From Escherichia coli (lineage in GTDB: Bacteria > Pseudomonadota > Gammaproteobacteria > Enterobacterales > Enterobacteriaceae), in NCBI RefSeq assembly GCF_003019035.1, contig NZ_CP027447.1: DNA of 64,000 nt; one strand, given 5' to 3'. A program made the translations under genes and the position numbers. The notes under the pieces were generated by a model. The model searched no databases and was not told the DNA's origin. It was given only the letters and a program-made list of their open reading frames with translations. Positions 22,638-24,092 of this stretch are shown one piece after another. How positions within the stretch are numbered: the first letter of the stretch is position 1; the number at the start of each line of letters is the position of its first letter.

Positions 22638-24092
22638 TTATACAAGGGGACTAGTCACAACAGGACTATTCTCAACGGGCTCATCCTCAGAGGAACTATC
22701 ATCAAAGTCATCATCCATAGATGAAATACCATCGAATGGTGCCACGCCCGTGATCATTTTTATTTTTTTATTACGATCAGATAAGACTCCATTTAAACCG
22801 TTTTCGCTCACAGGCTTTAATGATTTTTCATAACTCTCATTGTTAGCAGGCGTATTAAAAATACACGGAGTATCAACATCAAACAATGACGTCCCCCAAT
22901 TCACATATTTAATATCATAGTTACTGAAGTTCTGTCCAGAAAAGAAGCATCCCTTAAAGTCCAATCCACCTAAATTGTATAAACCACCCTCTTCTTTTGG
23001 GAGAGTAATTTTAATTCTGGCTATCTCCCAGACAAAATTGCCATTTTTGTATTTGAATACCGTTTCAAGATCTCCTCCAGACAGCTTGACTTCTGGAAAT
23101 AATTTGAAATTAAACCCTACATTATTATGTGTCAACGTAGATGAACAAAAGATGGAAAAAGCTTGCAGTGCTGAATTATAGCTATCGATTTTATCTTGAG
23201 GCTGCGCTCTTGGTAAAAACTTATAGCAACACTCATAAAAATTAAGTAGAAACTCTGATGACCTTCCATTTTTATCAAATAATACCCGCTGAAAATGCTG
23301 CACAAACTTATTCGTTTTTTCTTGAATATCTACGGTGTGTTCCTTTGACTCTGACAAAGATGGAGCCTGTTGAAGTGCATTGCTCATCTGGTTAATGAAC
23401 ATGTGCATTTCTTTAAATTTATCTCCATAGTGACCTTTAACTTGCTGCGAGTTTTTAGCTACAGGTGAAATCTTATCTATTTGGTTGTCATATAAATTAT
23501 GTGATTCCATACAGTCATTTGGCGGCGTTTCTGAAATAACACTACGTGTTCTACCTGGCTGAAGTGAAGCAACATGAAAATCACTTTTTATTATATTATC
23601 GAAAAGGGCCTGTTCATTTCTTTTAGCGGATTGAACATACTGATCAATATTATTTTCTCTCGATAATTTGTTATTTTCAGAAAACACATTTTCTTTAATC
23701 TCCGGTTTTAATTTAATGAGAAGATCTTCCCACTCCTACTTGCTTAAACATACTACGTCAGGCTCACCATCAGTAACTAACTCTTCATTATTATCAAAGT
23801 GTACGTTGAATACTTTTAAGTTATTTTCATCAACATCATATTTAATACGTTTTAATTGTTCTCCAGCTCCCATAATGACAAAGGCGTTGCCTTCTTGATA
23901 TATACATTCAGACATTATTTTTTGTAAAGTTTCAAGAGCACCGCGATACATCCCTGAGGCAGCTTCCTTACAAATTAAATTTATAATACTATAAGCTAGT
24001 AGCTCCATGGGGTTGGAAGAATTGTTTTCATTACAACTTCCACTACCCAAAACTGTATTAACGTTATGACCATTACTTTTACTAACTAACAT
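22638..24092 (-). pseudogene. ypjB/ypjC-like 484-codon reading frame interrupted by a single in-frame TAG
   Basis: ORFs 23736..24092 and 22638..23687 are in the same frame, separated by 16 sense codons and one amber codon (cta on + strand at 23736-23738); acidic Ser/Asp-rich C-terminus. Confidence 0.5.

What the first reader, a model, noticed from the sequence alone, without database searches (positions are those of the whole stretch)
22638..24092. 484-codon reading frame broken by a single in-frame TAG (ypjB/ypjC-like)
Minus-strand ORFs 23736..24092 and 22638..23687 are in the same frame, separated only by an amber codon (plus-strand cta at 23736-23738) and 16 sense codons. This is either a recent nonsense pseudogene or a gene needing stop-codon readthrough. 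The encoded protein has a highly acidic Ser/Asp-rich C-terminal tail (DDDFDDSSSEDEP) and no recognisable domain.
Basis: seen in the sequence. Interest (0 to 1): 0.4.

Follow-up and report, generated by a model that had tools for sequence, protein, structure and literature searches.

The report
Amber-stopped ypjCB pseudogene allele
This is an ordinary, already annotated pseudogene: one C-to-T change turned glutamine codon 119 of the E. coli-only gene ypjCB into a stop codon, one of several independent ways this fast-evolving gene of unknown function has been broken in different E. coli lineages.

Summary
Minus strand 24092..22638 is one 484-codon frame with a single in-frame TAG at codon 119 (plus-strand CTA, 23736-23738).

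The window is 100% identical to E. coli SCU-301, where RefSeq already annotates this feature as 'ypjCB, YpjCB family protein, internal stop'.

The repaired protein matches NCBIfam NF050179 (949 bits) and Pfam DUF5507 + DUF5508. Intact orthologues of 449-492 aa exist in many strains and carry CAG (Gln) or ACG at codon 119. The closest intact alleles are 98.3-98.4% identical.

The TAG is not a sequencing error. The exact 61-mer around it occurs in 56 of 5,426 complete genomes, always on the same 5' haplotype.

Nothing supports readthrough or a functional split:
- The stop is not conserved.
- Other lineages break the gene elsewhere: K-12 amber at codon 161 (1,232 genomes), a 1-bp deletion (63 genomes), and another frameshift.
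- Broken alleles pick up second lesions.
- Truncated 118-aa products carry substitutions at residues invariant in intact alleles.

YpjCB is an AT-rich, hypervariable orphan restricted to E. coli and Shigella. It lies 110-118 bp from a relic Fels-2-type prophage end. Its function remains unknown.

Verdict: already known, low interest.

The parts
22638..24092 (-). ypjCB pseudogene: 484-codon frame with one internal amber codon, plus terminal TAA
   Evidence: sequence and translation. RefSeq NZ_CP051751.1 HHJ43_RS06115, 'YpjCB family protein, internal stop'. DUF5507 + DUF5508 and NF050179 at 949 bits.
23736..23738 (-). The lesion: TAG at codon 119, derived from CAG (Gln) by a C-to-T transition on the coding strand; context AAG TAG GAG
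   Evidence: CAG in EC488, K-12, Ec-U14-2, F2_81, O157:H7, MS 21-1, SCU-172 and ST648; ACG in 100117 and MS1685; the exact 61-mer with TAG occurs in 56 of 5,426 complete genomes.
23739..24092 (-). Codons 1-118: the only part expected to be translated (118-aa product, predicted N-terminal helix plus beta-sheet domain)
   Evidence: ATG ORF; helices 28-61, strands 63-114, low confidence; this exact 118-aa protein is recorded on 412 contigs.
24100..24104 (-). Shine-Dalgarno-like GAGGA, 7 nt upstream of the ATG at 24092
   Evidence: Read directly; inference only.
22638..23735 (-). Codons 120-484 plus stop: untranslated remainder, comprising the variable, predicted-disordered linker (about 130-252), the conserved C-terminal domain (about 253-413) and the acidic tail
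   Evidence: (dN/dS 0.35-0.48 in the C-terminal part, about 0.7 in the N-terminal part and linker).
22443..22528 (+). Relic junction 110-118 bp 3' of the ypjCB stop: a degenerate ssrA 3' end (22443-22457) followed by the ogr-side end/attP region of a Fels-2/SopEPhi-type P2-like phage
   Evidence: 90-92% identity to E. coli P2-like prophages and 89.6% to Fels-2, SopEPhi and RE2010; Fels-2 annotates positions 1-23 of its record, overlapping the start of the 7-83 match, as part of attP; alignment, with ogr next to the match in the phages.
24849..24924 (-). tRNA-Ile2 gene ileY (anticodon CAT), upstream neighbour of ypjCB
   Evidence: ileY is listed as the phage 186 attachment site in MG1655 (PMC3448106).

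Best explanation
The feature is a pseudogene allele of ypjCB, a horizontally acquired, AT-rich gene found only in E. coli and Shigella. Shown: a single C-to-T transition changed CAG (Gln119) to TAG in one allele family, and that allele was then inherited and recombined among a minority of strains, including this one (SCU-301). Inferred: ribosomes start at the ATG at 24092, terminate at the amber codon through RF1, and release a 118-residue N-terminal fragment. The remaining 365 codons (variable linker, conserved C-terminal domain, acidic tail) are then not translated, apart from the trace of near-cognate misreading that any UAG allows. The gene is dispensable in many backgrounds, and it has been inactivated repeatedly and independently across the species. 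The biochemical function of intact YpjCB is unknown. My best guess, marked as inference, is a cargo ('moron') gene left by a degraded Fels-2-type P2-like prophage that once sat in ssrA. It would act in some conditionally useful interaction (phage, competitor or host), which would explain both its rapid divergence and its frequent loss.
For: - Identity and annotation: the window is 100% identical to NZ_CP051751.1, where the CDS is flagged pseudo, 'internal stop'.
- Family: NF050179 at 949 bits over the full length, plus DUF5507 and DUF5508.
- Sense codon in orthologues: CAG or ACG at codon 119.
- Intact genes of 449-492 aa occur in 100117, Ec-U14-2, F2_81, O157:H7 NE122, MS1685, OkiPb01700, MS 21-1 and SCU-172. 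An intact 484-aa cluster at 96% identity has 223 members.
- Real and inherited: the exact 61-mer with TAG is in 56 complete genomes. The 5' haplotype is identical in all six other TAG-bearing genomes examined (L009-L012, L015, and L001, which is the window's own record), for at least the first 588 nt in each, and their 3' parts are mosaic.
- Independent lesions elsewhere: K-12-type amber at codon 161 in 1,232 genomes; a 1-bp deletion at nt 473 on the window's own backbone in 63 genomes; a 1-bp deletion at nt 609 (K-12-allele numbering) in W284 and ECE228.
- Continued decay after the first lesion: 2012C-4502 has TAG119 plus a second stop at codon 387. O104:H4 2009EL-2071 has TAG161 plus a 1-bp deletion at nt 668.
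- Relaxed constraint on the fragment: 118-aa truncated products with A52V (263 contigs) or G51A (136 contigs) change residues that are invariant in 27 diverse intact alleles.
- In a rank-spread sample of 12 carriers, 6 were pseudogenes and 6 intact.
- Origin: G+C is 33-36% against about 52% in core flanks. A relic Fels-2-type phage end lies 110-118 bp from the stop. The protein matches PHROG phrog_30093. No homologue outside one 50%-identity cluster was found among 1.84 billion representatives.
Against: - No expression or protein data for this strain were available, so termination at the TAG is inferred, not shown.
- The frame downstream of the TAG is still open in SCU-301 and in most TAG-bearing alleles examined. 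That is what a moderately young pseudogene looks like, but it does not by itself exclude residual use.
- A K-12 ypjC deletion (the N-terminal fragment of the K-12 amber allele) had a modest biofilm-colonisation phenotype in one study (PMC3646849). A truncated N-terminal product may therefore retain some activity.
- The prophage-cargo origin is weakened by the absence of any ypjCB homologue in 50,697 phage records.
- The structure models were of low to moderate confidence and gave no informative fold match.
Confidence: 0.87

Rival explanations
1. The TAG is decoded: the gene is functional and depends on stop-codon readthrough, either by a natural amber suppressor such as a supE-like glnV allele or by a leaky context. 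This would produce full-length YpjCB, with Gln, the ancestral residue, at position 119.
For: The downstream 365 codons are still open in this strain. A Gln-inserting suppressor would restore exactly the ancestral residue, because the ancestral codon is CAG. Two independent lesions in the species are both CAG-to-TAG ambers.
Against: The stop is absent from most orthologues: 56 genomes carry it out of about 3,010 carriers. The other lesions are frameshifts that no suppressor could rescue. A TAG119 allele has acquired a second stop, and a TAG161 allele a frameshift. From general knowledge: E. coli has no pyrrolysine system, and natural isolates do not normally carry supE. No recoding signal is evident. 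CAG-to-TAG is simply the commonest one-step route to a stop.
Confidence: 0.03
2. The break creates a useful product: either a functional two-gene arrangement (a YpjC-like N-terminal protein plus a separately initiated YpjB-like C-terminal protein), or a selected truncation in which the N-terminal domain alone is the active form.
For: Three primary lesions (codon 119, codon 161, frameshift at about codon 158) fall in a 42-codon stretch just after the predicted N-terminal domain, and a fourth at about codon 203. All leave codons 1-118 intact. The K-12 amber allele is very common, in 1,232 genomes. Deleting K-12 ypjC gave a modest phenotype (PMC3646849). A GTG at 23687 could in principle restart translation.
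Against: The break points differ between lineages, so there is no conserved gene boundary. The GTG has only a GGAG 13 nt upstream, and the first in-frame ATG is at codon 196. The downstream parts acquire further stops and frameshifts. Truncated 118-aa products carry substitutions at residues invariant in intact alleles. With only four primary lesions, clustering is weak post hoc evidence. Constitutive ypjC expression gave no phenotype in the same paper.
Confidence: 0.08
3. The TAG is an assembly or sequencing error in this genome, and the gene is really intact.
For: Single-base errors occur in some long-read assemblies.
Against: The identical 61-mer with TAG is present in 56 independently sequenced complete genomes. 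The exact 118-aa product is recorded on 412 contigs, with two close variants on a further 399. The change is a substitution, not a homopolymer indel.
Confidence: 0.01

Closest known systems
E. coli K-12 ypjC/ypjB (b2650/b2649), now annotated as one pseudogene 'ypjCB, YpjCB family protein, internal stop'; NCBIfam NF050179; Pfam DUF5507 + DUF5508
   Same: Same gene and same chromosomal position (ileY - ypjCB - pin-like recombinase remnant - ypjA). Same family models at full length. Also inactivated by a CAG-to-TAG amber mutation.
   Different: The K-12 amber is at codon 161, not 119. The K-12 allele is only about 91% identical in DNA and lacks a 36-codon block (108 nt) of the linker that the window's allele has. 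The K-12-type lesion is in 1,232 complete genomes, against 56 for the window-type.
Intact YpjCB of strains MS 21-1 (WP_000961363.1) and SCU-172 (WP_001571800.1)
   Same: 98.3-98.4% DNA identity, same length (484 aa), same allele family.
   Different: They carry CAG at codon 119 and are uninterrupted. The other differences are concentrated in nt 606-760, as expected from a recombined segment.
ypjCB of ST648 / EC488 (frameshifted)
   Same: Same 5' backbone as the window's allele: only two substitutions in the first 1,100 nt, one of them the T/C at codon 119.
   Different: Inactivated independently, by loss of one G in AAAAGAAA at nt 473. The exact 61-mer is in 63 genomes.
att-proximal cargo genes of Fels-2/SopEPhi-type P2-like prophages integrated in ssrA
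   Same: ypjCB lies 110-118 bp from an approximately 86-nt relic of an ssrA 3' end plus the ogr-side phage end. This is the position held by a small cargo gene next to ogr in phage Cartapus and in the T28R prophage. The gene is AT-rich and matches a PHROG of unknown function.
   Different: No phage record in the 50,697-record collection encodes a homologue. No ogr or other phage gene remains beside it. This is a resemblance of position, not demonstrated membership.

Membership tests
YpjCB family (NCBIfam NF050179 Ecoli_YpjCB) | Full-length match above the curated cut-off (650 bits) | tested here: met
   949.2 bits, residues 1-484 against profile positions 1-465.
YpjCB family (NCBIfam NF050179 Ecoli_YpjCB) | DUF5507 (N-terminal) plus DUF5508 (C-terminal) architecture | tested here: met
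   PF17612 over residues 1-160 (E 2.8e-81) and PF17621 over 234-484 (E 2.1e-144).
YpjCB family (NCBIfam NF050179 Ecoli_YpjCB) | Conserved chromosomal position between ileY and the pin-like remnant/ypjA | tested here: met
   Same neighbours in SCU-301, EC488, K-12, 100117, Ec-U14-2, F2_81, O157:H7 and MS1685.
YpjCB family (NCBIfam NF050179 Ecoli_YpjCB) | Uninterrupted reading frame (functional member) | tested here: not met
   Internal TAG at codon 119; it is therefore a pseudogene member.
Programmed stop-codon readthrough / recoding | The in-frame stop is conserved among orthologues | tested here: not met
   CAG or ACG in all other allele families. TAG is in 56 of about 3,010 carriers.
Programmed stop-codon readthrough / recoding | The sequence downstream of the stop stays under purifying selection in stop-bearing lineages | tested here: inconclusive
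   One of six other TAG119-bearing genomes examined has a second stop at codon 387. Most other downstream differences are recombination imports, so dN/dS is uninformative.
Programmed stop-codon readthrough / recoding | Decoding machinery or signal (suppressor tRNA, Pyl system, stimulatory context) | not tested
   glnV/glnX of SCU-301 lie outside the window and were not retrieved. Absence of a Pyl system in E. coli is general knowledge.
Split gene (independent ypjC and ypjB genes) | The same split point, with its own start site, is conserved in orthologues | tested here: not met
   The breaks are at codon 119, at codon 161 and at nt 609 (K-12-allele numbering), and at nt 473, in different lineages; many alleles are unsplit.
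Split gene (independent ypjC and ypjB genes) | The downstream ORF has a credible ribosome-binding site and start | tested here: inconclusive
   GTG at 23687 with GGAG 13 nt upstream; first in-frame ATG at codon 196. No expression data.
Prophage cargo (moron) of P2-like phages | Lies within or at the end of recognisable prophage DNA next to an att site | tested here: met
   A relic of an ssrA 3' end plus a Fels-2-type phage end lies at 22443-22528, 110-118 bp from the stop.
Prophage cargo (moron) of P2-like phages | Homologues are carried by extant phage genomes | tested here: not met
   tblastn of an intact YpjCB against 50,697 phage records found no match. The PHROG hit shows only that the gene was counted inside a predicted prophage.
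Known anti-phage defence proteins | Match to a PADLOC-DB model | tested here: not met
   0 families at E up to 1.

The most novel reading that the evidence does not exclude
ypjCB is not simply decaying. It would be a strain-variable cargo gene of an ancient ssrA-integrated P2-like prophage under diversifying selection: about 10% allelic DNA divergence, peaking inside the gene, dN/dS 0.4-0.8, and in-frame indels in the linker. Loss of its C-terminal domain would be repeatedly favoured, with at least four independent primary lesions, all downstream of codon 118. The truncated N-terminal fragment, or the null state, would then be adaptive in some niches, for example as escape from a cost imposed by a phage-, competitor- or host-interaction function.
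Probability: 0.12. Interest if true: 0.45.

Novelty: already known. Interest (0 to 1): 0.1.

Why it matters
It matters little for the broken frame itself. The lesion is already flagged in the public annotation of this very genome. The fused ypjC-ypjB reading frame is known well enough to have its own NCBI naming model.

The useful outcome is negative: this is not a candidate for stop-codon readthrough.

The side observations could justify a small population-genetic or functional study of what YpjCB does:
- The orphan gene is restricted to E. coli and Shigella.
- It is hypervariable.
- About half of the carriers have it broken, by several independent lesions.
- It sits next to a relic P2-like prophage end.

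Tried and rejected
- Remote homology: phmmer against 1.84 billion representatives found one full-length cluster plus fragments. The only other hit was a spurious 2,688-aa repeat protein (E 4e-4) with unrelated Pfam domains.
- A profile search of PDB sequences found nothing (best E 1.5).
- AlphaFold2 of the full protein gave mean pLDDT 46, and Foldseek against PDB gave no hit with E <= 0.001 and TM <= 0.11.
- The afdb50 library was unavailable.
- I suspected pentapeptide repeats in GGLDFKGCFFSGQNFSNYD. Pfam gave no such match at E up to 1, so I rejected the idea.
- I considered a type III effector because of the Ser/Asn-rich N-terminus and because O157:H7 has an intact copy. No tool here tests this, and intact alleles also occur in strains of many other sources, so I did not pursue it.
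- PADLOC gave no match. There was no phage match. The plasmid 'hits' were three chromosome-sized (4.8-4.9 Mb) records filed as plasmids, plus one partial match (32% of the query, 61% identity) on a 245-kb plasmid record.
- I first thought the 76-nt match to an 'ssrA' annotation meant a copy of this window's ssrA. Direct alignment showed only a 15-nt ssrA 3'-end remnant; the rest is phage-end sequence.
- dN/dS among TAG-bearing alleles was uninformative, because their differences are recombined blocks.

Full report
**1. The observation.**

On the minus strand, window 24092..22638 translates as one frame of 484 codons plus a terminal TAA. It has a single internal stop at codon 119: TAG on the coding strand, CTA at plus 23736-23738.

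This is far beyond chance. At the gene's composition (34.8% G+C), about 38 stops are expected in 484 codons. Two thousand shuffles never gave fewer than 19, and the two other forward frames hold 28 and 82 stops.

**2. Identity.**

The region is 100% identical to the chromosome of E. coli SCU-301 (NZ_CP051751.1).

With the stop masked, the protein matches three family models:
- Pfam DUF5507, residues 1-160.
- Pfam DUF5508, residues 234-484.
- NCBIfam NF050179 'Ecoli_YpjCB' over its full length, at 949 bits against a cut-off of 650.

'No recognisable domain' is true only in the sense that these families have no known function.

The neighbours are those of the K-12 locus. In window coordinates they are:
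- an alpha-amylase-family gene (ygaQ), 25481-27733.
- tRNA ileY, 24849-24924.
- ypjCB.
- a pin-like recombinase fragment, about 22110-22277.
- the autotransporter ypjA/ehaD, 17134-21702.

**3. What orthologues show at the site.**

I aligned the gene from 15 other complete genomes, plus SCU-301's own RefSeq record (L001), which is identical to the window.

- Codon 119 is CAG (Gln) in EC488, K-12, Ec-U14-2, F2_81, O157:H7, MS 21-1, SCU-172 and ST648. It is ACG in 100117 and MS1685. The lesion is thus a C-to-T transition, CAG to TAG.
- Uninterrupted genes of 449-492 aa are annotated in 100117, Ec-U14-2, F2_81, O157:H7 NE122, MS1685, OkiPb01700, MS 21-1 and SCU-172.
- The last two are 98.3-98.4% identical to the window's allele and have the same length.
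- The protein database also holds an intact 484-aa cluster at 96% identity with 223 member sequences.

**4. Not an error, and not unique.**

The exact 61-mer centred on the TAG occurs in 56 of 5,426 complete E. coli genomes.

All six other TAG-bearing genomes I retrieved share the same 5' haplotype. These are E7-1N7, 2016C-3878, TCM3e1, 2012C-4502 and LR-28, plus SCU-301's own record. The shared stretch is the first 588 nt in LR-28, 729 nt in 2012C-4502, and more than 1,100 nt in the others. Downstream they differ by blocks typical of recombination. This indicates one mutational origin followed by spread and recombination.

In the 15-billion-protein collection, the exact 118-aa truncated product is recorded on 412 contigs, and two single-substitution variants on 263 and 136 contigs.

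**5. Recurrent, independent inactivation of the gene.**

ypjCB is present in about 3,010 of the 5,426 complete genomes. The lesions found are:

| Lesion | Where found | Genomes with the exact 61-mer |
|---|---|---|
| Amber at codon 119 (CAG to TAG) | window allele family | 56 |
| Amber at codon 161 (CAG to TAG) | K-12 type | 1,232 |
| 1-bp deletion at nt 473 (AAAAGAAA to AAAAAAA) | ST648, EC488; the window's own backbone, with CAG119 | 63 |
| 1-bp deletion at nt 609 (K-12-allele numbering) | W284, ECE228; CAG161 | not counted |

These three counted classes alone make at least 45% of carriers pseudogenes. Of 12 carriers taken from a rank-spread list, 6 were flagged pseudo and 6 were intact.

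**6. Tests of the readthrough and split-gene ideas.**

Neither holds.

Decay continues after the first lesion:
- 2012C-4502 has TAG119 plus a second stop at codon 387.
- O104:H4 2009EL-2071 has TAG161 plus a 1-bp deletion at nt 668.
- The common 118-aa variants carry A52V or G51A, at residues invariant in an alignment of 27 diverse intact proteins. This suggests that even the fragment that is still translated is under relaxed constraint.

Break points differ among lineages, so there is no conserved gene boundary.

For restart of translation downstream, the window offers only a GTG (23687) with a GGAG 13 nt upstream. The first in-frame ATG is at codon 196.

From general knowledge: E. coli has no pyrrolysine machinery, wild isolates do not normally carry amber suppressors, and CAG-to-TAG is simply a common one-step route to a stop. 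I could not check the glnV/glnX genes of SCU-301, and no expression data exist for this strain. Termination at the TAG is therefore inferred.

One published observation argues for some residual activity of an N-terminal fragment. Deleting K-12 ypjC modestly increased invasion of a commensal biofilm by a pathogen, although constitutive expression had no effect (PMC3646849).

**7. What kind of gene ypjCB is.**

- **Restricted distribution.** All named hits are E. coli or Shigella. An exhaustive HMMER scan of 1.84 billion cluster representatives found one full-length cluster, fragments of it, and nothing else credible.
- **Composition and divergence.** It is AT-rich, 33-36% G+C against about 52% in the core flanks. 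It is unusually divergent: alleles differ by about 10% in DNA. Identity dips to 71-90% inside the gene while flanks stay at 95-99%.
- **Selection.** Pairwise dN/dS is 0.4-0.8 with dS of 0.08-0.28. It is about 0.7 in the N-terminal part and linker, and 0.35-0.48 in the C-terminal part. The linker carries in-frame indels.
- **Other libraries.** PADLOC gave nothing, and the only PHROG hit is a family of unknown function.

**8. Context clue to origin.**

A stretch at 22443-22528, ending 110 bp 3' of the ypjCB stop codon, has two parts. The first is a degenerate copy of the last 15 nt of ssrA. It is followed by about 70 nt that match the ogr-side end/attP region of ssrA-integrating P2-like phages.

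- The matches are 89.6% identity to Fels-2, SopEPhi and RE2010, and 90-92% to E. coli prophages and phage Cartapus. They include the hairpin that those phages place after ssrA.
- Fels-2 and SopEPhi are known to integrate into ssrA (PMC3448106).
- The true ssrA of this strain lies at 7760-8122, followed by an integrase ORF and a newer island.

The simplest reading, which is inference, has three steps:
1. An old Fels-2-type prophage sat in ssrA.
2. Later integrations pushed its junction 14 kb away.
3. Almost all of it was deleted, leaving ypjCB in the slot next to where ogr would be.

That slot is occupied by a small cargo gene in Cartapus and in the T28R prophage.

Against this, no ypjCB homologue exists in 50,697 phage records, and no other phage sequence survives between ypjCB and ileY.

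**9. Verdict.**

The pseudogene reading is supported, and the readthrough reading is not. The feature is already annotated as such in the public record of this genome, and the fused family has a dedicated NCBI model, so novelty is 'already known' and interest is low.

What remains mildly interesting is the population biology of ypjCB itself: an orphan, hypervariable gene that is broken in about half of its carriers by several independent lesions. Its function is unknown.

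Noticed in passing
window 22443-22528 (+): Relic of an ssrA 3' end (15 nt, CCGCCAACT-CACCA) followed by about 70 nt that match the attP/ogr-side end of Fels-2, SopEPhi, RE2010 and E. coli P2-like phages at 89.6-92% identity. It lies 14 kb downstream of the real ssrA, which marks an old, displaced prophage junction.
   Followed up: yes
L003 3688-3690 (K-12 ypjCB codon 161); 1,232 complete genomes: The K-12 ypjC/ypjB split is a different CAG-to-TAG amber, at codon 161. The exact 61-mer around it is present in 1,232 of 5,426 complete E. coli genomes, so the broken K-12-type allele is one of the commonest states of this gene.
   Followed up: partly
window 25481-27733 (+): The alpha-amylase-family gene ygaQ is an intact 750-aa ORF here. 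The same gene is flagged 'internal stop' in K-12 and O157:H7 NE122 and 'frameshifted' in strain 100117. It is a second neighbouring AT-rich gene that is variably pseudogenised.
   Followed up: no
P0165, P0166 (118-aa truncated YpjCB variants): Two common variants of the truncated product differ at adjacent residues: A52V on 263 contigs and G51A on 136 contigs. Both residues are invariant in 27 diverse intact YpjCB proteins.
   Followed up: partly
window 24849-24924 (-): The tRNA called Met(CAT) by ARAGORN is annotated tRNA-Ile (ileY). ileY is listed as the attachment site of P2-like phage 186 in MG1655 (PMC3448106). ypjCB is therefore bracketed by two P2-like attachment targets.
   Followed up: partly
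window 7760-9522 and 15000-17100: ssrA (tmRNA, tag ANDENYALAA) at 7760-8122 is followed by a 410-aa ORF at 8290-9522, which I take to be the island's integrase (no family search was run). The ssrA-to-ypjA island is only about 9 kb here, much shorter than K-12's CP4-57 as I recall it. Its distal part is very AT-rich (31-37% G+C).
   Followed up: no
window 17134-21831 (-): The mechanical ORF for ypjA/ehaD is 1,565 aa from a GTG. RefSeq annotates a start 129 bases (43 codons) downstream of it (window 21702). The start codon of this autotransporter is therefore uncertain.
   Followed up: no
window 22110-22277: A pin-like recombinase fragment ('recombinase family protein, incomplete') lies between ypjA and the att relic. 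In 2012C-4502 and E7-1N7 a longer recombinase CDS is annotated as intact at this position.
   Followed up: no
window 49089-49166, 57823-57894, 60783-61374: Rfam and ARAGORN found naRNA4 (CssrE), the MicA sRNA, and a cluster of four tRNA-Arg(ACG) genes plus one tRNA-Ser(GCT) gene.
   Followed up: no
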